DNA of 64,000 bases, taken from the UHGV virus genome UHGV-0279745. One strand, given 5' to 3'. The position numbers were made by a program, and so were the translations under genes. This document shows positions 211-62,128 of this stretch, piece after piece. The notes beneath the pieces were generated by a model, which worked only from the letters and a program-made list of their open reading frames with translations, made no database searches and had not been told where the DNA came from. The stretch is from a virus. Numbering within the stretch: position 1 is the stretch's first letter; each line of letters begins with the position of its first letter.

Positions 211-231
211 AGATATATATTACTTAAGTGA
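211..231 (+). promoter_or_regulatory. candidate early-type phage promoter element, copy 1 (agatatatattacttaagtga)
   Basis: One of three near-identical AT-rich motifs in the window; followed by a 10-bp-stem hairpin at 234..260. Confidence 0.4.
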
Positions 232-313
232 ATAGGGGCTGAACTGGCACTTCAGCCCCTACGGACACGTTTCATTCGAAACGGATTGATTAAACCATTT
301 GGGGAGACAGATC

Positions 314-4530: not shown

Positions 4531-4532
4531 CA

Positions 4533-4570
4533 TCGGTGGGGGTAAACCCCCCACCTTTTATTTTTTTGTT
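4533..4570 (+). terminator. intrinsic terminator
   Basis: ggtggggg-taaa-cccccacc hairpin followed by a long T-run. Confidence 0.7.
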
Positions 4571-4592: not shown

Positions 4593-4614
4593 AGATATAT
4601 ATTACCTAGGTGAG
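4593..4614 (+). promoter_or_regulatory. candidate early-type phage promoter element, copy 2 (agatatatattacctaggtgag)
   Basis: Contains TATATTAC; lies between a terminator and the next gene; followed by a gtgagag/ctctcac hairpin (4610..4631). Confidence 0.45.
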
Positions 4615-4660
4615 AGTACAAAAGCTCTCACTTAATAAAACCATTTTAGGAGTATTAAAG

Positions 4661-12650: not shown

Positions 12651-12737
12651 TGGGTAAAACATATATCGCTATACTTGTCGAGCTATCAATCGGCGGTACA
12701 CGTTTTAATACTACACATCAACTCCGGGCGTTTCGTT

Positions 12738-13235
12738 ATGTTAACGGTACGTAAAGAATCTGAAATTGGTAACGATCTTTTTAATGCGCCCGAAGACTAT
12801 AAAGTCGTTACCATTAATTGCGTAGGAGCGATGGGTCGCGGTATTGCACTCGCGTGTCGTGAACGCTACCCCAACCTTTACCAGGATTATCGTAAGCGGT
12901 GTCGTGAAAACGAAATTAAGATTGGAAACGTTTACGTTTACTCTGACGAAAAGTGTATCTTGCTCCCCACGAAAACCCATTGGCGCTTAAAGTCCCAGGT
13001 TTCTTATGTTACTGCGGGCATTACCGCACTAGCGGATTGTGCTGAGGATCTGGATACCAGCGTTGCTATCCCTCCACTGGGAATGGCAAACGGGTGGTTA
13101 GATTCCTGGGAAAGACAAGAAATCTTTTTGTGGCTTTACAAAAAACTTGAATCAAGGAGACAACACTACACGTTATACTTACCTGATAAGTTGTACCAAG
13201 AAGCAGAGTCATTAATTCCAAACTCTTTTAAATAG
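12738..13235 (+). CDS. macro-domain-like protein (tentative; ADP-ribose binding/processing fold)
   Basis: ATG 12738 preferred over TTG 12675; motif VTINCVGAMGRGIALA resembles the macro-domain glycine-rich loop; assignment from motif only. Confidence 0.4.
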   Translation: MLTVRKESEIGNDLFNAPEDYKVVTINCVGAMGRGIALACRERYPNLYQDYRKRCRENEIKIGNVYVYSDEKCILLPTKTHWRLKSQVSYVTAGITALADCAEDLDTSVAIPPLGMANGWLDSWERQEIFLWLYKKLESRRQHYTLYLPDKLYQEAESLIPNSFK

Positions 13236-13253
13236 ATATTATCATTAGGGCAC
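13234..13253 (+). promoter_or_regulatory. candidate promoter-like element, variant class (agatattatcattagggcac)
   Basis: Shares the AGATAT..TTATC core with two other intergenic sites and resembles the early motif. Confidence 0.25.
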
Positions 13254-13335
13254 ACAACAAAGGAGTATTAGCTGTCCGCGCCGTCATTTCGTCTTACGGA
13301 ATACGGAAATGTATAAATCCAACTGGAGAAACAAA

Positions 13336-14034
13336 ATGTTTCGTATCTTCTTTCTTTTACTGGTAACACTTTTCGCGTTTAACGCACAGGCGTCAACGTC
13401 AACGCCACATTCTAAGCATCAGCGTGAGTTTGCACAAATCCAACATCGGTTCGAAAAAGTCAGCCCGTTAATTGTGGAAATCTCACGAAAGCAGGGCGTT
13501 GATCCCAAGCTGATGATTACGCTGATTTATCGTGAATCGCGTTTTGATCCCAAGGCTTACAACAAAAGCTCACGAGCACATAGCCTGGTACAAATGCTTC
13601 CAAGTACCAAACGTAATCTGCTAAAGCTTTATGGAAAAGAATTAGGTCTTAGTCAGAACGCCGATTTGTATAATCCGCGCAACGCTGTTTTGCTGGCTAC
13701 CGCGTATGTTAAACATCTTGAGAAGGGGTTAACCAAACGACTCAAACGCAAGCCCACCATGGCTGAAATTGCGTTAGCTTACCACTGGGGTGAAAGTGGC
13801 GCTCACACGCGAATCAAAAGCAAATCTCGAGCAGCACAACGAGAAATGGCAGGCTTTATGAAAGACGCCGCGTTCTATAGCGCGAAAATCGATGTGCCTG
13901 TTGTTGTGGGCTCGGCCCCACGTCAGCTTGCGTTTGCGAAGAAAACACCACGTCAGATTCAACTGGCGGAAGTTAGTAGAATTTGGGATACGATAAACAC
14001 GAGTTTTCCAATCAATAGAGGAGTTACCCTTTGA
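13336..14034 (+). CDS. secreted lytic transglycosylase (SLT domain)
   Basis: ATG 13336 with GGAGA RBS; signal peptide MFRIFFLLLVTLFAFNAQA; SLT motif ESRFDPKAYNKSSRAHSLVQMLPST. Confidence 0.6.
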   Translation: MFRIFFLLLVTLFAFNAQASTSTPHSKHQREFAQIQHRFEKVSPLIVEISRKQGVDPKLMITLIYRESRFDPKAYNKSSRAHSLVQMLPSTKRNLLKLYGKELGLSQNADLYNPRNAVLLATAYVKHLEKGLTKRLKRKPTMAEIALAYHWGESGAHTRIKSKSRAAQREMAGFMKDAAFYSAKIDVPVVVGSAPRQLAFAKKTPRQIQLAEVSRIWDTINTSFPINRGVTL

Positions 14035-14540
14035 GCATCGTAGTAACCGATTGGTATAAAGGCATTACAAAAGCCGCACAATTGACCGCGAAAGACGTTT
14101 ACAGTATCGTCCGAAGCAGTATCGAAGACGAGATTAAGTCGGATGAAGAATTCGCTGAGAAACACGAATTTTACGATGCTTTACCCACAGCATTCGGCGA
14201 CGACGAAGAAGAAGGTTTAGAGTTTGACTGGAACGTCAACCTTGCCTTACTGTGGATTTGTGGTTTACGGCCAACGGTAAAAGAAACCGAAGAAGGAAAA
14301 GTCTTGCTTTGGAATTTTACCGGGCAGTATAACCGTAATTTAGTCTTTAAACAGGCGTATATGGACGCTACTGTAGAACTTCAAAATCTACTGCTTGGCG
14401 AAAACACATACTGCCAACGCAGTTTCTTAACGATTCTGGAAAAACTTGTGTCGACACACAAAGTCTGGCGTAAAGAAGACGCCCCGGAACATATGTTCAT
14501 TTTAGAGTACGCTGTCATTCCAAATCAGCCGTTCTTCTAA
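14031..14540 (+). CDS. hypothetical protein
   Basis: ORF track; TTG start overlapping upstream stop, AGGAG 7 nt upstream. Confidence 0.5.
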   Translation: MSIVVTDWYKGITKAAQLTAKDVYSIVRSSIEDEIKSDEEFAEKHEFYDALPTAFGDDEEEGLEFDWNVNLALLWICGLRPTVKETEEGKVLLWNFTGQYNRNLVFKQAYMDATVELQNLLLGENTYCQRSFLTILEKLVSTHKVWRKEDAPEHMFILEYAVIPNQPFF

Positions 14541-14544
14541 TCCC

Positions 14545-14586
14545 TACCCCTTACCCTATACGGTGTAAGGGGTACTTTTATTTTCA
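14545..14586 (+). terminator. intrinsic terminator
   Basis: ccccttac/gtaagggg hairpin plus T-run. Confidence 0.6.
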
Positions 14587-14606
14587 TTCCCTAAAGGAGC
14601 AGAGTT

Positions 14607-18732: not shown

Positions 18733-18757
18733 AATTAAAAATACTCCGAGGTGAGCA

Positions 18758-20547: not shown

Positions 20548-22068
20548 ATGAAGAACGTTGATGTTGCAGTAATTTACACGGATGGTAGCCATTTGACCTC
20601 CCCGCTCGGTACAGGAGCGGGGATTCATGGATACTTATTTAATCGTGAAGCGATTGAGGATGGTCGGGTTTACCGTCATCCCTCTATTCCCGAGGGGATT
20701 ACGACGTCAGGATACCGCCAGATAAACAAGGATGAAAAACTTCCACCTTTACCAGAAACCGTGGAGTTTATTGACGGTGTTGTGCCTGTACCAAAAATGT
20801 CACACTCCGACGTTGCAGAACTCGTGGCTTTCCTGACCGTCTTCGAACACGCACCTTTCGTTGCCAAAAACTATGTTATCTATATCGATGCCTCTTACGT
20901 TGTCAACACGTATAACGATTGGATTGATGGTTGGGCTGCACGCGGTTGGCGTCGTGCAGACGGTACGCCTATTGCGAACTTGGAATTAATCCAACGGATG
21001 TGGGAGGTTAAACAGCGGTTAAAGAAAGAAGGGAAAGGTATTCGTGTCCTTAAAATTAAAGGGCACTCAGGACGCTATGGAAACGAGCGTGCCGACGAGT
21101 TAGCACGGAAAGGTTCAAGTATTTCGGCTCGAGGTGAGGGGTTAGACTATACACCGTATTGGTCAAAAGACGAGATGCCTGAGGAAGAACAGCAACCAGA
21201 AGTTGTTGGTGAAGGTGTCAATTTGTCTGCTTTTCCCGATATCTGTGTTACGAAGTTCTGTTACCCGATGGTGAACGAACCGCATCCCACTGTTACAGTT
21301 AACGGTAATAAACTTTATTACATGTTCGGTGGGAACCATGCAAAACAGAAGGACGATATCGTCTTCGTTGGTAAGTACATTCCAGATGCACAATTCTGCG
21401 TAATGTTTACCAAAGAACCATGGAACAACGTATACGAGTTGGTAAATACCCACTCTGCGAAAGCGTGGGAAGGGGTGCCCCGTTTACGTCAGTTTGATCC
21501 CATTGCCGTTGTTTTTAACTTATTCGTAAAACGTAAGAAGTTCGCAGAAGCCGCAGGTAACGGTATTCCTGTCGATCGGATGCATTTTAGCGAAGACAAA
21601 AACCTGTGGATGTTTGAAGATCTTTCGATTACACGAATTCTTCGTCCCGCGTTATTGTCTTATCGCTGCATTACGATTCGTGATGAGCTTGCAGGTTGGT
21701 TACGCGATGCCATGGAGGGGAAAAACTCAGTCGTAATGAACGACATTACTGACCTGCTTTACGATGAGAAAGGTAAGCCGAAGAAAGACTTTTATCGTAA
21801 CGTAGATAAAGGTTTTGACGTAACTATCCATATCCCTGGTAGTAAAAACAAGGTTAAAACCATCCTTACTCGAGGTATCGACATACCGACGCGTACGGAA
21901 ATCAACCGTATGAAAGAACCAGAAGGACGATTCTACGTGGCGGTACGGCGTCCAGAACGGCAGTATATCGAGTACGCGTTGGTTTATATTGGGGAAAAAT
22001 ATCATGGGTTGTGGTGTGGCTATTATTCAAACAAACGAATATTGACGGATAAGGAGCTTGAATGCTGA
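20548..22068 (+). CDS. RNase HI-domain protein with about 330-aa C-terminal extension
   Basis: N-terminal RNase H motifs YTDGS ... YIDASYV ... HSGRYGNERADELA; 506 aa total. Confidence 0.65.
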   Translation: MKNVDVAVIYTDGSHLTSPLGTGAGIHGYLFNREAIEDGRVYRHPSIPEGITTSGYRQINKDEKLPPLPETVEFIDGVVPVPKMSHSDVAELVAFLTVFEHAPFVAKNYVIYIDASYVVNTYNDWIDGWAARGWRRADGTPIANLELIQRMWEVKQRLKKEGKGIRVLKIKGHSGRYGNERADELARKGSSISARGEGLDYTPYWSKDEMPEEEQQPEVVGEGVNLSAFPDICVTKFCYPMVNEPHPTVTVNGNKLYYMFGGNHAKQKDDIVFVGKYIPDAQFCVMFTKEPWNNVYELVNTHSAKAWEGVPRLRQFDPIAVVFNLFVKRKKFAEAAGNGIPVDRMHFSEDKNLWMFEDLSITRILRPALLSYRCITIRDELAGWLRDAMEGKNSVVMNDITDLLYDEKGKPKKDFYRNVDKGFDVTIHIPGSKNKVKTILTRGIDIPTRTEINRMKEPEGRFYVAVRRPERQYIEYALVYIGEKYHGLWCGYYSNKRILTDKELEC

Positions 22069-22730
22069 TCGTTTATAGTGAGGTCTTGTCAAAAGCCCCC
22101 CGGTTTTTACAAACTCACTTTATGTATAACGCACGGCAGTATTGGGGCTTTAAAGCCCCTTACTCCGAAGATTGGGAAGTTGTGGAAAAGTTAGCATTTG
22201 TGTTTTCTCTTTCGTTGTTGTGGGAGATCATTGCACTATACAACGCGGGTTGTGATATCCCGGAGAACGGCTTTTTCCAACAACACCTATTCCAAAAATT
22301 CACAGCATCGGTAGAAAATCATGAAGTGCGCAAGGAGTGTATCGGCTACGCAGAGCATTCTGAAGAATTGAGAAAGATTTCCAAATTAGTTATCACGCGG
22401 ACATGGGCTGAATTCGAAACTTACCCCGAAAAAATAATTTGGTTTAATCGTGAACAGTTTATTAAAGAGGCAGTCAGTCAACATCCCGTTCGACTAATCG
22501 TGTTAAAGCCGTCAGATCTCGCCTTACGCCACATCTATTCGTCTCCAGAGGAAATCGTTTTTTCCTCTGGAACAACAGATTATGGTATTTTTAAACAAGG
22601 CGATTCTTGGATTCTTCCACACGATTTAGACGGGTATTTGCTCAGTAGCGATCAAATACATTCGGGTTATGACTCACAGGTGAAGGAGTTTACAGTCGAT
22701 CCTTTTTTCGCTAAAAATATTCTTAGATAG
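22062..22730 (+). CDS. hypothetical protein
   Basis: ORF track; start overlaps upstream stop (ATGCTGA). Confidence 0.55.
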   Translation: MLIVYSEVLSKAPRFLQTHFMYNARQYWGFKAPYSEDWEVVEKLAFVFSLSLLWEIIALYNAGCDIPENGFFQQHLFQKFTASVENHEVRKECIGYAEHSEELRKISKLVITRTWAEFETYPEKIIWFNREQFIKEAVSQHPVRLIVLKPSDLALRHIYSSPEEIVFSSGTTDYGIFKQGDSWILPHDLDGYLLSSDQIHSGYDSQVKEFTVDPFFAKNILR

Positions 22731-22745
22731 ATATTATCCAGGTGT
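22726..22745 (+). promoter_or_regulatory. candidate promoter-like element, variant class (agatagatattatccaggtg)
   Basis: AGATATTATC core upstream of the 22767 gene. Confidence 0.25.
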
Positions 22746-22766: not shown

Positions 22767-23507
22767 ATGCTAAAAGTTTATGTCCCTCAATTACAACGTA
22801 TCAATCCCTCGTTGTTCGAGGGAATCTTTTATAAAATTTGGCCACAATACTTCAATGAACGTTTGAAAGACCCAAGGTGGTCGACCGTACAAGGAGAATT
22901 CTTTTATACCGCACAAACCGCCTGCACAGGTATTTTCACTCAGTTCATTGGAGAAATTATTAACGCCGTCAACACTAACCGAACTGTCGACCTACGTGAC
23001 GTTACAGTAGACCTCTCATCAATCTACGATAACTACGATTGTGATGATGCTGTGTTCGAACACTTTTCTGTTGAAGACGTTTGGGAAGCAGTGTACCAGT
23101 GGTTAGAGTATTACGTGAATTACCTACTCTCCCCAGAGATGTTAGAAACCTTCAACAAAGCACTCTTTCCTATTTATAACGACTTACTCAACGTTAAACA
23201 AACAAAGAACCTGGTTGGGTTCTGGTATTCGACCTACGACGCCGAATGTAAGTTGTGGGAAAAAGAAATGATTGCTTACGGGATAGAACGGGGAGACTAT
23301 GTTGAGATTCACTGTGGTTTCTGGCCATTCAGTCACTACGAGAACGCACGGCTTGGTATCTCACGATTGTGGTCGTTTTATCTCTGTGAAGCTACGGGCG
23401 TTATTTACCTTGAAGACAGCGGCGCACAAATCCCTAACGGTACTGTTGTAACATACTGCCAGATTCGTGAAGATCGGGGTCGGCCAATTTATCAGGAGTA
23501 CGTATAA
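22767..23507 (+). CDS. hypothetical protein
   Basis: ORF track; RBS cattggagttattaaaatg. Confidence 0.6.
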   Translation: MLKVYVPQLQRINPSLFEGIFYKIWPQYFNERLKDPRWSTVQGEFFYTAQTACTGIFTQFIGEIINAVNTNRTVDLRDVTVDLSSIYDNYDCDDAVFEHFSVEDVWEAVYQWLEYYVNYLLSPEMLETFNKALFPIYNDLLNVKQTKNLVGFWYSTYDAECKLWEKEMIAYGIERGDYVEIHCGFWPFSHYENARLGISRLWSFYLCEATGVIYLEDSGAQIPNGTVVTYCQIREDRGRPIYQEYV

Positions 23508-24049
23508 TGAAAATACTTATCGATTTCTCACTCAGCGAGTCACGGGGCAAATTAAACAAACTGTTAAGTGAGATGCGTAGCCGCGTTGCGTTTGAACTGC
23601 ACGACGCGATAGCAGTACATGAGAACAAGATTTCTGAAGAACACAGTGGGGTCGAAATTACTATCCTGGATTCAGAAGCGATGGTGAATAATCTCATTGA
23701 ACAGTTAGAGCGAAAAATCCATTCGGCCATGACATACCCACATCTAGTGCGGGTAACTGATCCCGATACGGATATTCACCTGATTCTTGAGAAAGCCTTT
23801 CTACATGCCGCGCATTACTTACAGAATAATGCTCCAGATACCCTCGATGAAGTGTATGTCGCCATATTGCAGCGACAATCTTCAACGACGGATATAATAG
23901 ACACAACGTGTTGGAGCGATATTCTTACCAACGAAACAATGTCCCGTATCCGGGATATTTTCCTTGAGACACTCGGGTTAGTTGAGAAAATCTGCCATGC
24001 TGAGCTCATCTACCTGTCATCAAAATACGGTCAACCTAAAGGAGTATAA
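23507..24049 (+). CDS. hypothetical protein
   Basis: ORF track; TAATG stop-start overlap. Confidence 0.6.
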   Translation: MKILIDFSLSESRGKLNKLLSEMRSRVAFELHDAIAVHENKISEEHSGVEITILDSEAMVNNLIEQLERKIHSAMTYPHLVRVTDPDTDIHLILEKAFLHAAHYLQNNAPDTLDEVYVAILQRQSSTTDIIDTTCWSDILTNETMSRIRDIFLETLGLVEKICHAELIYLSSKYGQPKGV

Positions 24050-24051
24050 TC

Positions 24052-24576
24052 GTGGATATTTTAATTCAGCTTCGCAAGAAAACAACCATTGCCACACCGA
24101 TAGCGCTAGAGGAGAAAATCTCTGGTGCGGTTGCACGCAAGCTCTGTGGTGCTCACGGCTTTAGCGACCATCAGGAGCGGGTCGTTACTGTCGCCACATT
24201 ACACAACTTACGACACACAGTACATTACTGTTTAGTTGACAACGTCACCATCACTCTTGATGATAACGTAAATGTCGACCAACTGCGGCGCGAAATTGTC
24301 CACAAGATCGAGGCTTACAATAGACGTTTCGAACGGGCATGTACGCGTTTAACTGATGACGAAGCACTACGAAAACGTTTGAAACTTGAAATTGAATATG
24401 CAGCGCAACGTTATGGGGTTGGCGGTACCGAACCGTGTCTGACCGAACAAGAAATCACGTTAGCAATCGAGGTTTATACCACTCTCTGCTGCGCCATCCT
24501 AAAAGAGACCAACCACGAAATTACAAAAGCGTTGTTAAACACCGCAGACAAAATCACCCCAATTTTAGGACAATAA
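24052..24576 (+). CDS. hypothetical protein
   Basis: ORF track; GTG start with cctaaaggagta RBS. Confidence 0.55.
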   Translation: MDILIQLRKKTTIATPIALEEKISGAVARKLCGAHGFSDHQERVVTVATLHNLRHTVHYCLVDNVTITLDDNVNVDQLRREIVHKIEAYNRRFERACTRLTDDEALRKRLKLEIEYAAQRYGVGGTEPCLTEQEITLAIEVYTTLCCAILKETNHEITKALLNTADKITPILGQ

Positions 24577-24577
24577 A

Positions 24578-25066
24578 ATGAACTTAAATCATAACTTCGA
24601 TATTCGTGACACCGATTTCGTACATGAATTTCTCAATAACGAAACGCGTGTACGAAAAGAAATTGAAGAAAAGTTGACTCCGTTGGTTGTAGACACTCCC
24701 TGGATGGCGGACTACGCCGCGTCCTACTTTTCTTCTCAGAGCTTATTTGGATACATATTTATCATACTTGACTTCTTCGATCCATCAAGCAAGCGCATAA
24801 CAGAAACATACGTTCGGCAACGCCTACGCCACGGTCGCAACGAGTTCTTAAAGAAAGTTTCTGATGCGTACCACATGGGTCGATTCCCTACTCCGCTAGT
24901 CCCTTATACAGAACCGGAATGGGATAAATTTTATACCCGGATTTGGGTTGAAGACTCTCTCTTGAACGAAATCGTAGAAATCATCAAGCGTAACGAAAAC
25001 CAACTTGCTCTGCAACTATGGGAGTGGCTAAAAGCTAATTATCCTGATTACGTCAAAATCGACTAA
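24578..25066 (+). CDS. hypothetical protein
   Basis: ORF track. Confidence 0.6.
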   Translation: MNLNHNFDIRDTDFVHEFLNNETRVRKEIEEKLTPLVVDTPWMADYAASYFSSQSLFGYIFIILDFFDPSSKRITETYVRQRLRHGRNEFLKKVSDAYHMGRFPTPLVPYTEPEWDKFYTRIWVEDSLLNEIVEIIKRNENQLALQLWEWLKANYPDYVKID

Positions 25067-25070
25067 TAGA

Positions 25071-25104
25071 CACCCTAGCTTCGGCTAGGGTTACTTTATT
25101 TTTA
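25071..25104 (+). terminator. intrinsic terminator
   Basis: ccctagc-ttcg-gctaggg plus T-run. Confidence 0.65.
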
Positions 25105-27777: not shown

Positions 27778-27875
27778 TCTAAAACCTCGGATTATAAGTC
27801 AGGGTTACATAGTAAAGTCTTTTTACAGTTCACCCAAACCTTATGACCGAGACTCTTCCATAAAGGTAAAGCTCG

Positions 27876-29731: not shown

Positions 29732-30031
29732 ATGCGTTATCAAACGGAGATTGTGGAACGCTTAAGTGAAGGATTGGCAAGTGTTAATTTAGAAACAGCG
29801 GCCGAATTTCGTGAAGCCTTCACTCACCCGTTTCCCGATCTGGAATCCTTTTGTTTAAAGGTCGCTGAGTATTACTCGAATCTATTAGTACGTTACGGGT
29901 ATGCGCCAGTACGTTCCGAACTTCCTGAAAACACGGAAGCTATCAGCTACTGGATTGACCTGCTTGAAGCAGAAACGTTATCCAATTTACGTAAGGCGGT
30001 AGACAATGAAACTCGAACCAGCGCGGCGTAA
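29732..30031 (+). CDS. hypothetical protein
   Basis: ORF track; RBS cctaaggagtc. Confidence 0.5.
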   Translation: MRYQTEIVERLSEGLASVNLETAAEFREAFTHPFPDLESFCLKVAEYYSNLLVRYGYAPVRSELPENTEAISYWIDLLEAETLSNLRKAVDNETRTSAA

Positions 30032-30674
30032 AAAGGCGGAAGCCTACGCCTTACAAATCTTAAAGTTGGTAGACCCTTCTGGCATTAATGCTGAAGCCGC
30101 GAAGAAAGCCTTCGCACGAATGACCGACGAACAGTTTAACCGACTTCGTAACGGTTTACCTATTTACAACCCGGTGGGAAGTAAAGTCGAAATTGACCAC
30201 CTGCGCAATATCGAGGTGTGCAAAATTCTCGGGGTAAACCTGGAGCAACGACTCTGGTTAACAGAACCAAAAACGGGTGTTTATCACCGTACTCGTTACC
30301 CTCACTTAGTCTTACGCTTGCCTGTCCGTCGTCAGACACAGATGCAAGAAAAGAAAATGGCGGTTGCGAAAAACGACAAAGTTCGCGATAAACTCTCCGG
30401 TCAAGTCGTCGGACCTTCCAAAGCATCCGGGGTGTCCTTCCCAGAGGCATACATCATGTATTCCGATGGTCACGACTGGACACTGAAAGAGTTCTTGTGG
30501 GCGCGTGGTGGTAACGACGCACTACAACGTGCTTTCTATCAATCTCTGCGCCAAACCGGTAAAGGGCGTATTGATTTGCCTGGAGCGGAGCGAACGAGTT
30601 CTAAAGCAACGCGTACGTGGTCAGCGTACCTAAAAGCGATGCATATCGGTAACAACATAGGCCATCCGTCATGA
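30006..30674 (+). CDS. hypothetical protein (start uncertain)
   Basis: ORF track; overlaps upstream gene by 26 nt in another frame. Confidence 0.45.
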   Translation: MKLEPARRKKAEAYALQILKLVDPSGINAEAAKKAFARMTDEQFNRLRNGLPIYNPVGSKVEIDHLRNIEVCKILGVNLEQRLWLTEPKTGVYHRTRYPHLVLRLPVRRQTQMQEKKMAVAKNDKVRDKLSGQVVGPSKASGVSFPEAYIMYSDGHDWTLKEFLWARGGNDALQRAFYQSLRQTGKGRIDLPGAERTSSKATRTWSAYLKAMHIGNNIGHPS

Positions 30675-31393
30675 GATTATCTCGGCGTTTCTTAATCGAT
30701 ATTGATACGTTATTTGATACGCGTTTAGGTTGGGTAAAAGCCGTTAAGCCTGAAAGCTTAGCATTGCTAGACTACGATGTTTATCGTCGTCGCTATACAG
30801 AAGCTTGGGCTGGCGTACTTGGATTTGAAAAATGGGATGAAGAGTGGCGGAAGCGGGATAAGCGCGCGTTGATTAATGCGCAACCTACTGAATTATTGGC
30901 AACAATGAAAAACGAATTCGAGTGTATGTTGCTTGAAATCGAAATGCATTCGCCAATTGAAAAACCCACTCTGACCATCAATACGTGGCCGTATACGGAT
31001 TTAACGGGCGAAGAACTTCAAGCCTTTTTGAATCTGTTTCGGATGTACTACAATAACGTACAAGTTGAATTGGTGTCTTGGTCGTTAGAAGATCTCACAC
31101 CGGGGAGATTGTCGTTGGCGTGGGATTGCTGGATAATGTACGATTGGTTCGAGTGGATTAAGCTTAACGCTACGCACTTGAAAAAACCGATTCCGAGCTT
31201 TACCATCACACACCCTGCCATGCTCACACCAGAACTGACCGGGGAATTGGTTGAACAAATCAAACAAGACGGCGTTAATCCGTTTAAGGAACATATCCGG
31301 TTTATGGCAGAGTGGGTCGGTGTCGACCCACGAGATGCCGCTTTATTTAGTCTTGCTCGCCCTGCTCAGGACGTGCAAACGCCGCCGTCATAA
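30671..31393 (+). CDS. hypothetical protein
   Basis: ORF track; ATGA stop-start overlap. Confidence 0.55.
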   Translation: MRLSRRFLIDIDTLFDTRLGWVKAVKPESLALLDYDVYRRRYTEAWAGVLGFEKWDEEWRKRDKRALINAQPTELLATMKNEFECMLLEIEMHSPIEKPTLTINTWPYTDLTGEELQAFLNLFRMYYNNVQVELVSWSLEDLTPGRLSLAWDCWIMYDWFEWIKLNATHLKKPIPSFTITHPAMLTPELTGELVEQIKQDGVNPFKEHIRFMAEWVGVDPRDAALFSLARPAQDVQTPPS

Positions 31394-31811
31394 TGGACTT
31401 AACATCGATTTGTTCGCCTACTGGTGCCAGCTCCCCTTCTGTTACTTCAACATCAGGAATAACAGGAACGGGGGGCTGGTAGCCCTGGGTTTCTTCGATT
31501 TCCTCATCGTGACGACGTATTTTGATATTACCGCGTTGCATGAGGATGCTATTAAGTGCATTCGCCAAATCTTGGTTAGCTTCGCTGTTTTTCTGTGCAG
31601 CAGCAACACGACGTTTGGAAATGATTTGTTTATCGACGTCGTTAAGCAAAGACCCCAGCCGGTCTACCGTTTTCAAGTCTTTGTGTGCTTGAGGATCGTC
31701 CAAGATGAGATTCACAATCCGTACACGGGCTTGTTGCGTTTGGCGGAGAAGCGATTCTTCGTCGTCCACATCTCCATCAAACGCCTGATATTTCACTTCT
31801 TCGTCAGCCAT
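31347..31811 (-). CDS. acidic hypothetical protein
   Basis: ORF track; GAGGT RBS 8 nt upstream on minus strand; 3' end overlaps the convergent 30671..31393 gene by 47 nt. Confidence 0.55.
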   Translation of the reverse strand: MADEEVKYQAFDGDVDDEESLLRQTQQARVRIVNLILDDPQAHKDLKTVDRLGSLLNDVDKQIISKRRVAAAQKNSEANQDLANALNSILMQRGNIKIRRHDEEIEETQGYQPPVPVIPDVEVTEGELAPVGEQIDVKSIMTAAFARPEQGEQD

Positions 31812-31844
31812 TCTTACTACCTCAATTTCAAAAAGAAGTCAGAC

Positions 31845-31862
31845 AGATATTATCTACGTGAG
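31845..31862 (+). promoter_or_regulatory. candidate promoter-like element, variant class (agatattatctacgtgag)
   Basis: In the divergent intergenic region, about 20 nt upstream of the RBS of the 31883 gene. Confidence 0.3.
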
Positions 31863-31882
31863 ACATTCTTTAGGAGTGAATT

Positions 31883-32431
31883 ATGTTAACAGGAATAATA
31901 ACTCGTTTTAAACAACGGTTAGAGAATAATCGTTTAAAAGCCCTCAGAGAGTCTCTGAAGCAGGAGTTCCATAAGAACACCCACAACCCCTATGTCAGAG
32001 TCTTTACCGGCTTACAATTGCTTACGTTGCCTTTAAACATAAACGAAGAACCCTTTCGTCCCAGCCTTCGCGGTTTCCTCGAATTGCGTGTTAATAACAT
32101 TGACCTCGTTTATCAACGTTTGGCATTTCTCATTAATGAATACCAACGAGCAATTAACAGGAGTTCAATAGAATGGCTACCATTACCTGATGCTTTAAAT
32201 AAACGAAACGACTTGGCGGAATACCGATGGCTAGACACTTATTTTGGGACGTCCAGTCCTGAGGTTGCCGCTTATAAGCTAGGTAAAATACTCGCGCTAA
32301 TTCAACCCTATGAATCAGCGTTCCTTAAACCGGAGTCCGACGAAGACAAAGCGCTGGTAAATCAAACTGCGCATTTATTCCGGGAGTTGGAAACGTTGAT
32401 TGAACACTACCTTTTAGAACGTCCTATTTAA
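31883..32431 (+). CDS. hypothetical protein
   Basis: ORF track; RBS ctttaggagtg. Confidence 0.6.
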   Translation: MLTGIITRFKQRLENNRLKALRESLKQEFHKNTHNPYVRVFTGLQLLTLPLNINEEPFRPSLRGFLELRVNNIDLVYQRLAFLINEYQRAINRSSIEWLPLPDALNKRNDLAEYRWLDTYFGTSSPEVAAYKLGKILALIQPYESAFLKPESDEDKALVNQTAHLFRELETLIEHYLLERPI

Positions 32432-32464
32432 TAAACCAGTAACCCCTTGTAACAAGGTGATGTG

Positions 32465-33307
32465 ATGGATAGCAAAAAAGTAAGTGTGGTCGTGGACGCT
32501 GAAGACGAACGTGCAGGCGGACCACTTCAAACACTATATTGGAATTATAAAGAATTGATCGGATGGAAGCCTTCGGATTATAAACTCGCCGTCGCCAAAC
32601 ATATTCTGTCTCCAGAATTTAAAACACGTTCAAAAGCAACGATGGACGATCGAATACAACGTATCTCCACGAAGCTGAGTTCAGGTAACATCCCTGCACT
32701 ACCTGTCGATCTTACCTGGCGAGGTTTTACAGAAGGGTTGGTGATTACCGGAGTGGAAACACTGCGGATTTGTGTAACCACTTACCGAGGACACTTCAAA
32801 ACAAAAACCGTATCTGAAATTACCACACGCGTGCGTGAAGATCTCGCTCGGGATTTGTTCGAAGATAACGACGAACGACCTAAAGAGTCTGCAACTGCGC
32901 AATTGAACCGTTATTTCCAGAACTGTGGTGAGACCGCAAAGATGATGGTGCATCCGTTATCTCGGCTAACTTGGACTATCTTCGCAAACATGAAAATGAA
33001 TGCGGACTGGTGGTACCGTCTTTCCACAAACTTCGTTAACGATCCTGCTAACTGTGAGCAAACGCCGTCGAAACGAAATGATTTGCGGCACAACATGCAG
33101 CACAATCTAAGGTTAAAAAAGAAGTTTTCCTGGAAATGGTTTATGAGGGTACTCAAGGCAATTGATGTTCGTAGTTTCGAAATCCTTCTGACCTTAAGGC
33201 GTCAGAAAGACAATAAAATCTACGAAGTTCAGGTCACGGTAAACCTTGACGAATACCAAATTGGAGACCAGAATGAAAATCGACCAAATAACCAGTCAGA
33301 TAAATAA
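32465..33307 (+). CDS. hypothetical protein
   Basis: ORF track (ATG one codon after the GTG at 32462). Confidence 0.55.
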   Translation: MDSKKVSVVVDAEDERAGGPLQTLYWNYKELIGWKPSDYKLAVAKHILSPEFKTRSKATMDDRIQRISTKLSSGNIPALPVDLTWRGFTEGLVITGVETLRICVTTYRGHFKTKTVSEITTRVREDLARDLFEDNDERPKESATAQLNRYFQNCGETAKMMVHPLSRLTWTIFANMKMNADWWYRLSTNFVNDPANCEQTPSKRNDLRHNMQHNLRLKKKFSWKWFMRVLKAIDVRSFEILLTLRRQKDNKIYEVQVTVNLDEYQIGDQNENRPNNQSDK

Positions 33308-34547
33308 AGGTCAGTCAGCAATCGATAATTCCGTTAATACGGCAAAGAACGCCGCAAACCGCGTACAATCGACGGTGGAGAATGCGGAGCGTGGTATTAA
33401 AAGCACGGTCGATAGCGTCAACCGATTGTCAGAACGTGCTGGTGAAACATTCAACAAACTGATTGGCGGTGGTAACGAACTGACCAGCAAAATTGGTAAC
33501 CTTTTTGGCGGTAGTGATACCGCCAGTGTTGGCGGAAGTAAGACTGCGGGGAGTTCGGCTTCCGGTGTATCTCCGGGACAAAAAGTTCCCGGGTTTGCAT
33601 CTAATACCAAAGAAACACTTCCTGTCCTCGATCCACAAAAGCGTGACGTTTCTGAACCTTTTAAGAAAAAGGACGAAGATGGTCTAAAAGCGCTAGACTA
33701 CCTAAGTCCGGGTGGGATGGGGAAACTGTTAAATAAAGGGTGGGACAGCATCGGCAGCTTAACCGACTCTGTTTTATCAGGTATCGGCACCGACTTTAAC
33801 TCAGTGAAAAAACGTCTCGAAGGGACGATGAACATTGCTGGGCAACTGGCTAAACTCCCCTCGGAAGTTAGTCAAGAAGTCAACGGCTTTATGTCCGAAG
33901 TCAACAGTATGCGTTATCAAATCACCTCGATCGTTGATGACGTACAGCATACTTTCGACAGCTACAAAGACTTAGACGACTTCTTAGCCATCGATAACCT
34001 GATTAACAGCTTTAAAGGCAGCAACAGTTTCTCCACGTTAGACATTAATACCTCTTCAGCATTGATTTATGGCCTGTCTACCAAACTGAACAGTTATGGT
34101 TTACCGGCTAAAATCGAACCGATGCTTCAAGCGATTACCGATGCGCAAGCGAAAGAGGTACTGTACGGCGAGCTGATGATTCAGGCAGCAGCGACAGGTA
34201 ATCTGGATTCAACGGAATACTATCTGGATAAACTCCAACCGGGGCAAGGGACTCAGATCGCAACCACCGTTATCCAGAACCTTATGGCTAACCTTCGGGT
34301 TGAACCCGGTGTCAGTTTCAAAACGTATGGCACTCGTCTATTAACGTTATTTAAAGGATTAGATGCAAAATGGGACAAAGCGAAAAACATCACGCCAGAA
34401 ATGACTGAACTTAAACTTTACACCTATGCAGGCGTAAATGCGATTCAGGCGCTACTGACCACCGAGAAACGTAATTACGTGATTGCTGCAGGTAGTGTAA
34501 GTTACCAGTCTACCGATAAAATCGTGGAAGACTATTTTGCAATTTAA
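33273..34547 (+). CDS. hypothetical protein with Gly/Ser/Asn-rich N-terminal region
   Basis: ATG 33273 with GGAGA RBS; low-complexity N-terminal third. Confidence 0.55.
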   Translation: MKIDQITSQINKGQSAIDNSVNTAKNAANRVQSTVENAERGIKSTVDSVNRLSERAGETFNKLIGGGNELTSKIGNLFGGSDTASVGGSKTAGSSASGVSPGQKVPGFASNTKETLPVLDPQKRDVSEPFKKKDEDGLKALDYLSPGGMGKLLNKGWDSIGSLTDSVLSGIGTDFNSVKKRLEGTMNIAGQLAKLPSEVSQEVNGFMSEVNSMRYQITSIVDDVQHTFDSYKDLDDFLAIDNLINSFKGSNSFSTLDINTSSALIYGLSTKLNSYGLPAKIEPMLQAITDAQAKEVLYGELMIQAAATGNLDSTEYYLDKLQPGQGTQIATTVIQNLMANLRVEPGVSFKTYGTRLLTLFKGLDAKWDKAKNITPEMTELKLYTYAGVNAIQALLTTEKRNYVIAAGSVSYQSTDKIVEDYFAI

Positions 34548-34557
34548 GAGGCCGGTT

Positions 34558-35379
34558 ATGTCCGAACCACAATTACTGCGTTCCGTATTAAAGAAGATCA
34601 AAAGCCAGGGTGAAGACAATCACGCTTTGGCATTAACGCTGGGTTATCAACCTGGGCGAAATAATCCTAATGGATACGTTAACGCGTCAAACATCGTGCT
34701 TACTCCTGATGAGCGCTTTGTTTATGTCCTATACCTTCGTCGTTTAGGCTACGTTTGTGCGTTACCCGAAAAACTCCCTTTTACCGATGGTATTAACCAT
34801 CTTAACCTTTACTCTAACGGTCGTACTACCGTAGGGAAGATGATCAGTAACTTCTACGCGCAACCTAACGGTGCGAAATTCGACACAATTCACGGTCAGT
34901 TTTTAACGTTAGAAGGCTACTATCATTATTTAAGGATCGTGGACTATCTGTTCTACAAAGGCTACGGAATAAACGCTTTGGGTCGTTTGGAAACTGAATA
35001 TCCTGACATCCGTTTATTACGCACCCTGACTGGGGCTGAATGTATACAACACGGTCGGCGATTAAAGGCGAGTATCTACGGGGGCACGGATTATCGGCCT
35101 GGCGAGTTTAGCAATTACGCAAGCGGTGCATTTCAAAACGCATTATTGCGTAAGCTCCGACTCTTGAAGTTTGACGGAAGCTGCTTAGGTAATGTGTTAT
35201 CGTACTGTCATTCGATGGGATTACCGTTCTTGCATTACTACGTTATGAACGGCCGGGTTATTACACCACCCCATTCGGAATGGCTTCCTAATCTGGTGGT
35301 TTCTATTGTAGAAAACATCGACTTTAACGACACAACGTTCGACATTACGAGCGTCAGTGAAAGTATGGGATTAATCTAA
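34558..35379 (+). CDS. hypothetical protein
   Basis: ATG 34558 with AGAGG RBS. Confidence 0.55.
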   Translation: MSEPQLLRSVLKKIKSQGEDNHALALTLGYQPGRNNPNGYVNASNIVLTPDERFVYVLYLRRLGYVCALPEKLPFTDGINHLNLYSNGRTTVGKMISNFYAQPNGAKFDTIHGQFLTLEGYYHYLRIVDYLFYKGYGINALGRLETEYPDIRLLRTLTGAECIQHGRRLKASIYGGTDYRPGEFSNYASGAFQNALLRKLRLLKFDGSCLGNVLSYCHSMGLPFLHYYVMNGRVITPPHSEWLPNLVVSIVENIDFNDTTFDITSVSESMGLI

Positions 35380-36038
35380 TGGGATTATTCGATACCCTTG
35401 CGCAATTGGAAAAAGCGCAGGAAGAAGAGGTTATTCGCGTTGCAGGCGAATCCATTAAACGTGAAGTGGAAAAGGAATATTGCGTCTGGGTTAAACCTAC
35501 GCAAGCGGGATGGGATTGGCTGCACGCACAGTCCGCCAAGATGTTCATGGACATTCTCATGCCGATAGAAGGTGGGCGTCGCCGTATCCGTATTAAAGAA
35601 GACGGTACAGCACAGCTAACGCTTAAGCGTAAATTCCTGGACGGAAAGGTTGAAGAGAATTCGGATATCGGTATTAGTTCTGCACTCTCTTTTTACAAGG
35701 ACGGTTATTTGGCACACCTGGTGAAACGTATTCACTTAGAACCGGGTGAATTAGCCGATAAAGGTGCTAAGCATTGGGATATTGATATTTTCAGTATCAC
35801 CACCGGACACCCCGCAATTGAAGTTTCGGGTGACTTTAACGATCTCCTCACTGAGATGCGTAGCAGTACCAGCGTCGGTGACTGGGTGAAAGTTGAACTG
35901 GAAGTCGAACGTTACGAGATTGCGGATGTTCTGTCTGTGATTCCGTTTGAGTTTGACGGCCATATTCCGGCTACGCCAAAAGATCCTGAAGACCAAGAAT
36001 ATCTTCGTGATTACTGGGATTCAGTTACCCGTATGTAA
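35379..36038 (+). CDS. hypothetical protein
   Basis: ORF track; TAATG overlap. Confidence 0.6.
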   Translation: MGLFDTLAQLEKAQEEEVIRVAGESIKREVEKEYCVWVKPTQAGWDWLHAQSAKMFMDILMPIEGGRRRIRIKEDGTAQLTLKRKFLDGKVEENSDIGISSALSFYKDGYLAHLVKRIHLEPGELADKGAKHWDIDIFSITTGHPAIEVSGDFNDLLTEMRSSTSVGDWVKVELEVERYEIADVLSVIPFEFDGHIPATPKDPEDQEYLRDYWDSVTRM

Positions 36039-36040
36039 CA

Positions 36041-36082
36041 CCCACCCTACTCCTGACTAGGAGTAGGGTATTTTCATTTTTT
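36041..36082 (+). terminator. intrinsic terminator (CCCTACTCC/GGAGTAGGG stem family)
   Basis: ccctactcc-tgacta-ggagtaggg plus T-run. Confidence 0.7.
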
Positions 36083-36101
36083 ACCCTAAAGGAGAATTAC
36101 C

Positions 36102-51174: not shown

Positions 51175-51203
51175 AACGTTTAATCCGTATCAGGAGATTT
51201 AGC

Positions 51204-52823: not shown

Positions 52824-52832
52824 GGCTAAGCA

Positions 52833-58797: not shown

Positions 58798-58815
58798 CGC
58801 GCTTAGGAGGTGATC

Positions 58816-59544
58816 GTGAGTGCGATTGAAACAGCCCGTCGTGACCCTACTAAGGTTCATGCGGACTTGGTAAATAACGGCACGGTCACCACTACCAAAG
58901 GGGGATGTTACATTTACATCCCCGTTGGGTTTGTGGCGAAAGAGTTGGCGGTTATTTCTTCTACGGTAACAATTGTAGGGATCTTTGCGATTTCTACCGA
59001 CCGTAAAACATATGGGGTGTCCAGCGTTACAACGCTTATGGAGATTACCCCAACGGCGTTTGAAGAGATCGACGTCTTTGGTGTTCCTTATTACGAATTT
59101 CGTTTTGATCCCGGTACAGTGGTTTTCCCCAACCGCAATTTACAGGTGTTGTCTCACCCTATTTACAACATTGCGTCGTATATTTACGACTTTGGTAATC
59201 GTCCTTTCTGGTTTACTGCAGCGGATGATGCTGAACTCTTGGCACCTGATAAAGTCAAGAAATGGAACGGTTTTACTGTATTTGCCGATCAGATTACCGC
59301 TGACGTTTACGCAGCACACACACAGCGTAAAGTAGGTGATCCGAGAACGTTCTTCCGTTACACGCTGAAGAAAGATAGCGATCTTAACAACCCTGTGCAG
59401 TTTATTCCATTGCGCAGTGGTTCACTTAACAAAACGTCGAGACTGGCGAAGCTTGCGGACGTGGAACTTAAACGTGGTATTCGTTCTGCGCTACAGGTTG
59501 ACCCGGTGCGTGCCGAACCGCTCGAAGATTTGTTTATGAGGTAA
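58816..59544 (+). CDS. hypothetical protein
   Basis: GTG 58816 with AGGAGG RBS (58810 GTG is too close to the RBS). Confidence 0.55.
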   Translation: MSAIETARRDPTKVHADLVNNGTVTTTKGGCYIYIPVGFVAKELAVISSTVTIVGIFAISTDRKTYGVSSVTTLMEITPTAFEEIDVFGVPYYEFRFDPGTVVFPNRNLQVLSHPIYNIASYIYDFGNRPFWFTAADDAELLAPDKVKKWNGFTVFADQITADVYAAHTQRKVGDPRTFFRYTLKKDSDLNNPVQFIPLRSGSLNKTSRLAKLADVELKRGIRSALQVDPVRAEPLEDLFMR

Positions 59545-61985: not shown

Positions 61986-61992
61986 AACCATT

Positions 61993-62036
61993 CGGCTAGT
62001 CTATTCATCGAATAGACTAGCCCACCTTTATTTTAA
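61993..62036 (+). terminator. intrinsic terminator
   Basis: gctagtctattc-atcg-gaatagactagc 12-bp stem plus T-run. Confidence 0.7.
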
Positions 62037-62055: not shown

Positions 62056-62077
62056 AGATATATTTTACTTAGGTGAG
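62056..62077 (+). promoter_or_regulatory. candidate early-type phage promoter element, copy 3 (agatatattttacttaggtgag)
   Basis: Same motif and same terminator-promoter-gene arrangement as copy 2. Confidence 0.4.
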
Positions 62078-62128
62078 CGTTGTAGAATTACACGCTATTC
62101 GACTGTTTAACCTAAAGGAGTATTAAGA

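What the first reader, a model, noticed from the sequence alone, without database searches (positions are those of the whole stretch)
13234..13253. Second, shorter motif class (AGATATTATC...) at three intergenic sites
agatattatcattagggcac (13234), agatagatattatccaggtg (22726) and agatattatctacgtgag (31845) share the AGATAT-TTATC core and resemble a truncated version of the early motif. All lie just upstream of plus-strand genes. They could be a lower-affinity variant or a distinct temporal promoter class.
Basis: seen in the sequence. Interest (0 to 1): 0.45.

Follow-up and report, generated by a model that had tools for sequence, protein, structure and literature searches.

The report
Second early-promoter class in a jumbo phage
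The three AGATATTATC sites are real, conserved promoter elements of a phiKZ-like giant phage, most likely a second subclass of the promoters read by the RNA polymerase the phage injects. This is a refinement of a known system, not a new kind of element.

Summary
AGATATTATC occurs exactly three times (13234, 22729, 31845), all on the + strand at gene boundaries, against 0.08 expected by chance.

[quoted passage not shown] The motif is not a truncated early motif. Aligned without gaps, it is a full-length, in-register variant of the clade's early element:
- Early class (E): AGATATATATTAC-N6-G
- This class (S): AGATAGATATTAT-N6-G

The two differ at coupled positions -14 (T to G) and -7 (C to T). 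S-class also has a variable discriminator and mostly short, unstructured leaders, whereas E-class transcripts begin with a 5' hairpin.

All three sites are conserved at orthologous positions in SPN3US, phiEaH2 and metagenomic relatives, while the flanking sequence diverges. SPN3US has about 14 S sites and phiEaH2 about 13, all co-oriented with genes. These include sites upstream of the non-virion RNA polymerase genes (the beta' gene in 9 of 9 genomes from 5 genera).

The S consensus fits the published early promoters of phages OBP and N1M2, and the experimentally mapped AR9 promoter (ATATATTAT-N6-G+1).

Best reading: promoters for the virion RNA polymerase, driving early genes. Whether their timing or strength differs from E-class is untested.

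The parts
13214..13249 (+). S1 promoter element, -35 to predicted +1. Core AGATATTATC is at 13234-13243, T(-7) at 13242, and the predicted start G at 13249. The element overlaps the stop codon of the upstream gene (12675-13235).
   Evidence: Sequence. Matrix score 23.7 bits. Orthologous AAATAGATATTATy-N5-GGGCAC is conserved in phiEaH2, SPN3US and IMG/VR relatives.
13249..13336 (+). S1 leader of about 88 nt, with a conserved sequence and predicted structure, upstream of the SLT transglycosylase gene.
   Evidence: Alignment and RNAalifold. Blocks GGGCAC..ACAAAGGAG..GTCCGCGCCGT..ACGGAAA are conserved, and 3 pairs show compensatory change.
13337..14540 (+). S1 transcription unit: a secreted SLT transglycosylase (13337-14034) and a phrog_8114 protein (14031-14540). 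A hairpin plus T-run follows at 14541-14590.
   Evidence: Pfam SLT E = 8e-15. PHROG hits. Intergenic sequence.
22709..22744 (+). S2 promoter element. Full motif AGATAGATATTATCCAGGTG is at 22725-22744, the core at 22729-22738, and the predicted +1 G at 22744. The leader to ATG 22767 is 23 nt. The element overlaps the stop codon of gene 22062-22730.
   Evidence: Sequence. Score 20.6 bits. Conserved in 4 IMG/VR relatives, in SPN3US at 184048 and in phiEaH2 at 107613, although the downstream protein is only 33-35% identical to the SPN3US one.
22767..25066 (+). S2 transcription unit: four genes of unknown function (phrog_8219, phrog_8379 and two without a family). It ends at the terminator at 25072-25091.
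   Evidence: Terminator.
31825..31860 (+). S3 promoter element, in a 71-nt divergent intergenic region after the minus-strand gene 31347-31811. Sequence CAAAAAGAAGTCAGACAGATATTATCTACGTG. Core at 31845-31854, predicted +1 G at 31860, leader of 23 nt to ATG 31883.
   Evidence: Sequence. Best matrix score in the window, 35.3 bits. The AAAAAGAAsTCAGACAGATATTATyT block is conserved upstream of the ortholog in 10 of 11 clade contigs, with protein identity 44-99%.
31883..36038 (+). S3 transcription unit: five genes of unknown function (phrog_8650, 4910, 5028, 652, 7768). It ends at a hairpin plus T-run at 36039-36090.
211..231 (+). E1, long early-class motif AGATATATATTACTTAAGTGA, for comparison. Predicted +1 G at 230, followed directly by a 5' hairpin.
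   Evidence: minimum free energy -18.2 kcal/mol for +1..+32.
4593..4613 (+). E2, long early-class motif AGATATATATTACCTAGGTGA. It follows the terminator hairpin at 4531-4570. Predicted +1 at 4612.
62056..62076 (+). E3, long early-class motif AGATATATTTTACTTAGGTGA. It follows a terminator hairpin. Predicted +1 at 62075.

Best explanation
S1-S3 are promoters of a second, discrete subclass of the early promoter of an SPN3US/phiEaH2-like (phiKZ-related) jumbo phage.

**Architecture**
- An A-tract lies near -30.
- The element AGATAGATATTAT spans -19 to -7. Its last six bases, TATTAT, occupy -12 to -7, like a bacterial -10 box.
- Six variable bases follow, then a conserved G that is the predicted transcription start.

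**Who reads it (inferred)**
The sites would then fire without prior phage protein synthesis. In related genomes, sites of this class drive operons that include the genes for the second, non-virion polymerase.

**How it differs from the long E-class early promoter (AGATATATATTAC-yTAGGT-G)**
- G instead of T at -14.
- T instead of C at -7.
- No conserved discriminator.
- Transcripts mostly run over about 23-35 nt of unstructured leader straight to the ribosome-binding site, instead of starting with a 5' hairpin. S1 is the exception, with an 88-nt leader.

**Shown versus inferred**
- Shown: motif reality, discreteness of the class, orthologous conservation and gene context.
- Inferred: the start site, the polymerase identity and the timing.
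For: **Non-random and complete set.** The exact 10-mer occurs 3 times against 0.08 expected. A matrix trained on SPN3US finds only the 3 S and 3 E sites in the window.

**Same register as the early motif.** S2 and S3 match at 17 of 21 positions, and the N6-G rule holds for 45 of 48 S-type and 62 of 66 E-type sites across clade loci.

**Phylogenetic footprint.** S1, S2 and S3 are each conserved at the orthologous position in SPN3US (174958, 184048, 191606) and phiEaH2 (98733, 107613, 116308). S3 is conserved in 10 of 11 contigs, while flanks and proteins diverge to 33-50% identity.

**Genome-wide census.** SPN3US has 14 S, 6 E and 2 hybrids. phiEaH2 has 13 S, 4 E and no hybrids. All are on the coding strand of the downstream gene. 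Coupling of -14 and -7 gives Fisher p = 6e-4 and 4e-4.

**Link to the non-virion polymerase genes.**
- An S-type element lies about 38 nt before the nvRNAP beta' gene in 9 of 9 genomes from 5 genera.
- S-type elements also precede the gp76-gp77 (nvRNAP beta) and gp22-gp23 loci.
- Subunit identities come from PMC5105663.
- In phiKZ the nvRNAP is encoded among the early genes and vRNAP transcribes the early genes (PMC10914365; PMC5312081).

**Fit to known early promoters.**
- S sites match the experimentally mapped AR9 early promoter AAATATATATTAT-N6-G+1 with 1-3 mismatches of 14 informative positions.
- They match the OBP consensus BSHAWWWWWTTTYARRYAKATATTATYWWADTG with 4 mismatches of 33.

**Polymerase conservation.** The vRNAP beta subunit in the window is 76-82% identical to those of SPN3US and phiEaH2, consistent with a shared promoter specificity.
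Against: - No transcript 5' ends or expression kinetics exist for any phage of this clade in the searched literature. The start site, the polymerase and the timing are therefore inferred by analogy with phiKZ and AR9.
- AR9 vRNAP is reported to be very sensitive to single deviations from its consensus. A two-base variant could therefore be read differently.
- The S-specific bases G-14, T-7 and C-6 create the near-palindrome AGATA-T-TATCT, which could instead be a regulator site. They also move the element toward the sigma-70 extended -10 consensus.
- S1 and S2 have no terminator upstream. Their operons could also be reached by read-through, so the promoters are not strictly required.
- The clade loci used for the 45/48 and 62/66 counts were fetched with motif patterns, so those counts are biased. 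The SPN3US and phiEaH2 censuses are not.
Confidence: 0.68

Rival explanations
1. S-class sites are promoters of a later (middle or 'delayed') class. They would be read by the non-virion RNA polymerase, possibly with an extra factor, rather than by the virion enzyme.
For: - They form a discrete class with coupled substitutions and a different leader architecture.
- phiKZ middle promoters are not recognised by purified nvRNAP alone and remain poorly defined.
- AR9 vRNAP tolerates few deviations from its consensus.
Against: - S-type elements directly precede all three nvRNAP gene loci, often after a minus-strand gene and with no E-type site nearby. Those genes must be transcribed before nvRNAP exists.
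- The motif does not resemble the phiKZ middle motif (AT-rich/TACT near -22 to -24) or the late motif (TATG at the start site).
- It matches the early consensus of OBP, N1M2 and AR9.
Confidence: 0.14
2. S-class sites are recognised by the host sigma-70 RNA polymerase as -10-dependent promoters. TATTAT lies at -12 to -7, G at -14, and the start is 7 nt downstream.
For: - The geometry is identical to a bacterial -10 box.
- Both S-specific substitutions (G-14, T-7) move the element toward TGnTATAAT, whereas the E-class C at -7 is incompatible with sigma-70 (sequence; -10 rules as summarised).
- Some phiKZ-related phages depend on the host polymerase (PMC5468394, listed).
Against: - There is no -35 element. 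The consensus scan calls none of the three sites, and sigma-70-like sites are not enriched (26 found against 33 expected).
- The invariant AGATAG upstream of the hexamer has no role in sigma-70 recognition.
- Orthologous or same-class sites carry G at -11 (ATGTTAT): the CR5, Phobos and EarlPhillipIV nvRNAP promoters, SPN3US 100819, 109897 and 238185, and phiEaH2 26767. That abolishes a sigma-70 -10 box.
- AR9 promoters with the same TATTAT hexamer are used independently of the host polymerase.
Confidence: 0.08
3. The motif is the operator of a dimeric phage DNA-binding protein that binds the inverted repeat AGATA-T-TATCT and regulates neighbouring genes. On this reading it is not itself a polymerase recognition element.
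For: - S3 is a perfect 5+5 inverted repeat and gives reverse-strand matrix hits.
- The bases that define S-class are exactly those that create the symmetry.
- The clade encodes HTH proteins (SPN3US annotation).
Against: - Conservation is asymmetric. The left half and a further 4-8 upstream bases are nearly invariant. The outer right-half bases are only 50-80% conserved, and in the window they read TATCA, TATCC and TATCT.
- Orientation always matches the downstream gene, and there is a fixed N6-G and a fixed distance to the start codon.
- The element is in register with, and homologous to, the non-palindromic E-class promoter.
Confidence: 0.06
4. The three sites are a chance recurrence of an AT-rich 10-mer in AT-rich intergenic DNA.
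For: The window is 42-48% GC with AT-rich spacers, and a 10-mer picked after the fact always looks enriched.
Against: - 0 of 100 shuffles reach 3 copies.
- An independently trained matrix recovers the sites.
- The sites are conserved at orthologous positions across genera.
Confidence: 0.01

Closest known systems
Early (virion RNA polymerase) promoters of phiKZ-related jumbo phages of the OBP/N1M2 type (…TTTYARRYAKATATTATYWWADTG), and the AR9 early promoter AAATATATATTAT-N6-G+1
   Same: - An AT-rich element of about 13 nt ending in ATATTAT.
- K (G or T) two bases before ATATTAT.
- An upstream A/T tract.
- A start purine 6 nt after the element.
- Many copies per genome, co-oriented with early or non-structural operons, including RNA polymerase and transglycosylase genes.
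   Different: - In OBP, N1M2 and AR9 this is the only early consensus reported. Here it coexists with a second, even more conserved class (E).
- The -19 to -13 block AGATAGA is clade-specific.
- Start sites have not been mapped in this clade.
The long early motif of the same clade (E-class, AGATATATATTACyTAGGTGAGAG), which is phiKZ/201phi2-1-type TATATTAC
   Same: - Same register and length.
- Same upstream A-tract followed by TTTC.
- Same AGAT start and the same ATATTA core.
- Same N6-G geometry and the same strand bias.
- Found in the same genomes.
   Different: - T rather than G at -14, and C rather than T at -7.
- Nearly invariant discriminator yTAGGT and initial transcribed GAGAG.
- Transcripts begin with a 5' hairpin (mean -7.9 against -2.9 kcal/mol, p = 9e-6).
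- Leaders are longer (44-56 nt).
- Usually placed after a terminator and ahead of small host-takeover-like ORFs.
- About 2-3 times rarer than S-class in complete genomes.
Bacterial sigma-70 -10 / extended -10 promoter element
   Same: Hexamer TATTAT at -12 to -7, with the start 7 nt downstream and G at -14.
   Different: - No -35 element.
- No T at -15.
- Strong conservation of -19 to -13, which sigma-70 does not read.
- Variants with G at -11 are tolerated.
- Context is a phage that carries its own polymerases.

Membership tests
phiKZ-related jumbo-phage early (vRNAP) promoter | A highly conserved AT-rich element of about 10 nt or more, centred near -10 (review PMC7598289). | tested here: met
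   AGATAGATATTAT is nearly invariant across 30 sites in 3 genomes.
phiKZ-related jumbo-phage early (vRNAP) promoter | A conserved start nucleotide 6 nt downstream of the element (phiKZ, phiR1-37; AR9 N6-G+1). | tested here: inconclusive
   A G is conserved exactly 7 nt after the last T in 45 of 48 S sites and in all three window sites. That this G is the actual 5' end has not been measured.
phiKZ-related jumbo-phage early (vRNAP) promoter | Located upstream of, and co-oriented with, early operons. Absent from late structural gene clusters. | tested here: met
   - All sites are co-oriented with the downstream gene.
- They precede the nvRNAP loci, an SLT transglycosylase and genes of unknown function.
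- None precedes the minus-strand virion or tail genes.
- 'Early' status itself is assigned by analogy with phiKZ.
phiKZ-related jumbo-phage early (vRNAP) promoter | Transcription independent of phage protein synthesis and of the host RNA polymerase. | not testable with these tools
   This needs infection experiments with chloramphenicol and rifampicin. No such data for this clade were found in the library.
phiKZ-related jumbo-phage early (vRNAP) promoter | The phage encodes and packages a multisubunit vRNAP. | tested here: met
   The window encodes orthologs of the SPN3US vRNAP subunits: gp240/gp241 (51204-56999, 76-82% identity), gp218 (30006-30674) and gp244 (58810-59544).
OBP/N1M2-type early promoter consensus | Match to BSHAWWWWWTTTYARRYAKATATTATYWWADTG, including T at the last position of ATATTAT. 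| tested here: met
   S1, S2 and S3 each have 4 mismatches of 33 and match the ATATTAT core exactly. E sites mismatch at the final T (consensus from PMC7058600).
Sigma-70 host promoter | A -35 hexamer 16-18 nt upstream of the -10 box, and an invariant A at -11. | tested here: not met
   No sigma-70-type call at any S site. Same-class and orthologous sites carry G at -11.
phiKZ late (nvRNAP) promoter | T-3 A-2 T-1 G+1 (TATG) overlapping the start site. | tested here: not met
   The -3..+1 bases are TAGG, GGTG and CGTG at S1-S3. Definition.
phiKZ middle promoter | A weak AT-rich/TACT motif centred at -22 to -24, with no conserved -10 element. | tested here: not met
   S sites have a strongly conserved -19 to -7 element and no TACT. 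Definition.

The most novel reading that the evidence does not exclude
SPN3US-like jumbo phages run a two-tier early programme from two discrete promoter subclasses that differ at coupled positions -14 and -7.

- E-class (C at -7, conserved discriminator, 5'-hairpin leaders) would give exclusive, very strong immediate-early expression of host-takeover genes.
- S-class (G at -14, T at -7, near-palindromic, mostly short leaders) would drive the second polymerase and other early functions, with different strength, timing or shut-off.

The difference could arise from a second recognition mode of the virion polymerase, from a symmetric regulator, or from dual use by the host sigma-70 holoenzyme. 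That would make promoter-class discrimination by a sigma-less multisubunit polymerase directly testable with two natural templates.
Probability: 0.3. Interest if true: 0.6.

Novelty: new member of a known kind. Interest (0 to 1): 0.38.

Why it matters
How the sigma-less, split-subunit virion RNA polymerases of phiKZ-like phages recognise promoters is still unresolved. Reviews state that only one early motif per phage can be found bioinformatically.

In the SPN3US/phiEaH2 clade, which includes a genetic model phage with amber mutants, there are two sharply separated and deeply conserved versions of that motif. The commoner one sits in front of the genes for the second polymerase.

This gives a better promoter map for annotating these genomes. 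It also provides a natural pair of templates, differing at -14 and -7, for probing promoter recognition and early-gene scheduling. It does not reveal a new kind of element.

Tried and rejected
- **Megablast of 12 kb of the window against phage genomes:** no match. The phage is only protein-level related to known genomes.
- **Collection scan with AGATATTATYYASGTG:** The 14-base pattern returned mostly chance hits in unrelated contigs. Only the seven hits in clade-sized jumbo contigs that I examined were used.
- **Rfam over the whole window:** nothing.
- **Function of the genes downstream of the S sites:** no assignment beyond the SLT transglycosylase, so gene function could not be used to assign a temporal class.
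- **Expression data for the clade:** searches for an SPN3US-clade transcriptome or proteomic time course, and for the literal motif strings, gave nothing usable.
- **Literature access:** the OBP genome paper is not held, and the phiKZ dRNA-seq supplements are not held.
- **Upstream ORF behind S1:** a conserved leader peptide was considered. The 14-codon frame in the window and in SPN3US is cut to 4 codons in phiEaH2, so it was rejected.
- **N4-style hairpin promoter:** considered and rejected, because AGATA-T-TATCT would leave a 1-nt loop.
- **'Truncated early motif':** rejected on the ungapped 17-of-21 alignment.

Full report
**1. What the window is**

The 2374-aa minus-strand protein at 44050-51174 matches the giant tail/transglycosylase protein of SPN3US, phiEaH2, Asesino and relatives at about 59% identity. 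Gene order follows SPN3US from about 162 to 225 kb.

The window also carries orthologs of the SPN3US virion RNA polymerase (vRNAP) subunits. The large beta subunit (52833-56999) is 82% identical to Erskinevirus and 76% to SPN3US.

There is no nucleotide-level match to deposited phages. Four IMG/VR contigs of 107-225 kb are close relatives. The source is therefore an undescribed phiKZ-related jumbo phage of the SPN3US/phiEaH2 clade. Such phages transcribe with two of their own multisubunit polymerases: vRNAP for early genes, and the non-virion polymerase (nvRNAP) for middle and late genes.

**2. The observation**

AGATATTATC occurs exactly three times, at 13234, 22729 and 31845. All are on the + strand. 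Chance expectation is 0.08, and 0 of 100 shuffles reached three.

- In S2 and S3 the motif starts exactly 38 nt before the ATG (22767 and 31883), and each gene has a GGAG ribosome-binding site.
- S1 lies about 100 nt before ATG 13337 of a signal-peptide SLT transglycosylase.
- S1 and S2 overlap the stop codon of the preceding gene.
- S3 lies in a 71-nt divergent spacer after a real minus-strand gene (31347-31811, phrog_5894).

**3. Relation to the 'early motif'**

Its 20-mer is found in 64 stretches of IMG/VR. Most of these, and all whose size matches a named genome (SPN3US, phiEaH2, CR5, Caitlin, ChrisDB, Huxley, Phobos), lie in jumbo contigs of this clade. A few contigs showed a different, AAATATATATTAT-type motif.

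The short motif is not a truncation of this. Shifted by 4 nt and aligned without gaps, it is the same element:
- S2 is AGATAGATATTATCCAGGTGT.
- S3 is AGACAGATATTATCTACGTGA.
- Each matches the 21-nt motif at 17 of 21 positions.

Both classes obey 'element, N6, G'. The G is present in 45 of 48 S-type and 62 of 66 E-type unique sites among clade loci. The way those loci were fetched biases these two counts.

Taking that G as +1, the classes differ as follows:

| Feature | E-class | S-class |
|---|---|---|
| -14 | T | G |
| -7 | C | T |
| Discriminator | nearly invariant yTAGGT | variable |

**4. Is it functional? Comparative evidence**

A matrix built only from ten SPN3US S sites scores the window as follows:

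| Site | Bits |
|---|---|
| S3 | 35.3 |
| S1 | 23.7 |
| E2 | 23.2 |
| E1 | 22.5 |
| S2 | 20.6 |
| E3 | 14.6 |

Nothing else scores above 11 bits except reverse-strand shadows. The maximum in shuffles was 14.6.

Each window site has an ortholog at the same place in SPN3US (174958, 184048, 191606) and in phiEaH2 (98733, 107613, 116308).

Upstream of the S3 gene family, the block AAAAAGAAsTCAGACAGATATTATyT is kept in 10 of 11 contigs. Protein identity there falls to 44% and the remaining spacer changes. The eleventh contig has AGATAGATGTTATCT.

For S2, the SPN3US protein is only 33-35% identical, yet the motif AGATAGATATTATC is intact.

**5. Census in complete genomes**

I used the class-neutral pattern A[GT]AT[AG]TTA[CT]-N6-[GA].

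| Genome | E | S | Hybrids |
|---|---|---|---|
| SPN3US | 6 | 14 | 2 |
| phiEaH2 | 4 | 13 | 0 |

- All are co-oriented with the downstream gene.
- The few remaining hits lack the upstream half of the motif and lie inside genes.
- The -14 and -7 states are coupled (Fisher p = 6e-4 and 4e-4), so these are two classes rather than a continuum.
- Consensus E: gAtTa.AAat.aTtTCAGATATATATTACtTAgGTG.
- Consensus S: .a.tc.AAaaa.tttcAGATAGATATTATct..gtG.
- All 13 E transcripts would begin with a hairpin at or within two bases of +1. Mean minimum free energy over the first 32 nt is -7.9 kcal/mol, against -2.9 for S (Mann-Whitney p = 9e-6).
- E leaders are 44-56 nt or longer. S leaders are mostly 23-35 nt.

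**6. Which polymerase?**

This step is inferred. Thomas et al. identify SPN3US gp34/gp35 and gp77 as nvRNAP subunits, and gp42, gp218, gp240, gp241 and gp244 as vRNAP subunits. RefSeq tag numbers equal 266 minus those numbers.

An S-type element lies about 38 nt before the nvRNAP beta' gene, in a short divergent spacer, in 9 of 9 genomes from five genera:
- SPN3US, phiEaH2, Asesino and Kwan: AGATAGATATTATC.
- Caitlin and Huxley: ATATATATTATC.
- CR5, Phobos and EarlPhillipIV: CATATATGTTATC.

S-type elements also precede the gp76-gp77 and gp22-gp23 loci.

In phiKZ, nvRNAP is encoded among the early genes, and the early genes are transcribed by vRNAP. The nvRNAP genes cannot depend on nvRNAP itself.

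The S consensus also fits published early promoters:
- AR9, experimentally mapped (AAATATATATTAT-N6-G+1): 1-3 mismatches of 14 informative positions.
- OBP: 4 mismatches of 33, including T at the end of ATATTAT.

I therefore assign S1-S3 to vRNAP with about 0.7 confidence.

**7. Rivals**

- **Host sigma-70.** The hexamer geometry fits, and both S-specific bases move toward TGnTATAAT. However, there is no -35 element, and the conserved -19 to -13 block is unexplained. Same-class sites tolerate G at -11, which a sigma-70 -10 box does not.
- **nvRNAP or a middle class.** This conflicts with the position ahead of the nvRNAP genes. The motif also does not resemble the phiKZ middle or late motifs.
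- **A symmetric regulator binding AGATA-T-TATCT.** This is possible, because the S-specific bases create the symmetry. But conservation is asymmetric, and orientation and spacing behave like a promoter.
- **Chance.** Excluded.

**8. Novelty and score**

Early promoters of phiKZ-related phages are a known kind, and the S consensus is essentially the OBP/N1M2/AR9 type. The sites here are new members.

Two points were not found stated in the accessible literature. First, two discrete and deeply conserved subclasses coexist in one clade. Second, the commoner one serves the nvRNAP genes. The original prediction papers (the AR9 genome paper and the OBP paper) were not readable here, so prior description cannot be excluded.

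Whether the classes differ in timing or strength is open. Interest is moderate at 0.38.

Noticed in passing
window 13249-13336 (also L214, L215, L216, L010, L045): The roughly 88-nt leader between S1 and the SLT transglycosylase gene is strongly conserved across genera. Conserved blocks are GGGCAC..ACAAAGGAG..GTCCGCGCCGT-[variable loop]-ACGGAAAAGTA. It has a predicted 5' helix and a hairpin with 3 compensatory pairs. An SD-like AAAGGAG followed by a short frame is not conserved as a peptide. This may be a regulatory 5' UTR. There is no Rfam match.
   Followed up: partly
window 230-262, 4612-4630, 62075-62097; SPN3US and phiEaH2 E sites: Every long (E-class) early motif is followed by a stem-loop that starts at or within two bases of the predicted +1 (G-AGAGTTA…TAACTCTC type). 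Mean minimum free energy is -7.9 kcal/mol for the first 32 nt, against -2.9 for S-class leaders. This suggests a 5'-hairpin signature of immediate-early transcripts.
   Followed up: partly
window 31845-31855: The S3 core AGATA-T-TATCT is a perfect 5+5 inverted repeat. The bases that distinguish S-class from E-class (G-14, T-7, C-6) are exactly those that create this symmetry.
   Followed up: partly
L221, L222, L224 (CR5, Phobos, EarlPhillipIV); SPN3US 100819, 109897, 238185; phiEaH2 26767: A recurrent sub-variant, ATGTTAT (G at the predicted -11), replaces ATATTAT at some S-type sites. This includes the nvRNAP beta' promoter of Derbicusvirus members.
   Followed up: no
window 18733-18757, 27778-27875, 51175-51203: Three other spacers where + strand transcription must restart after minus-strand genes carry neither the S nor the E motif. 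One of them lies ahead of the vRNAP beta genes at 51204-56999. These presumably hold promoters of another, unrecognised class (middle or late).
   Followed up: no
window 31251-31889 (+) versus 31347-31811 (-): The 212-aa TTG ORF on the + strand that runs through S3 is probably a shadow of the real minus-strand gene (phrog_5894, E = 1.6e-55). S3 is therefore intergenic, not inside a coding sequence.
   Followed up: yes
SPN3US 4431 and L014:2580: Rare hybrids, AGATAGATATTACCTAAGTG (G at -14 with C at -7), carry the E-type discriminator. SPN3US 238185 is the opposite hybrid, and its phiEaH2 ortholog (162338) is a regular S site. The classes therefore interconvert occasionally.
   Followed up: no
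window 4531-4570, 14541-14590, 25072-25091, 36039-36090, 61990-62035: Strong hairpin plus T-run terminators bound the S- and E-driven units. Genes immediately after these terminators (for example 14607, 25126, 36102) have no recognisable promoter motif.
   Followed up: no
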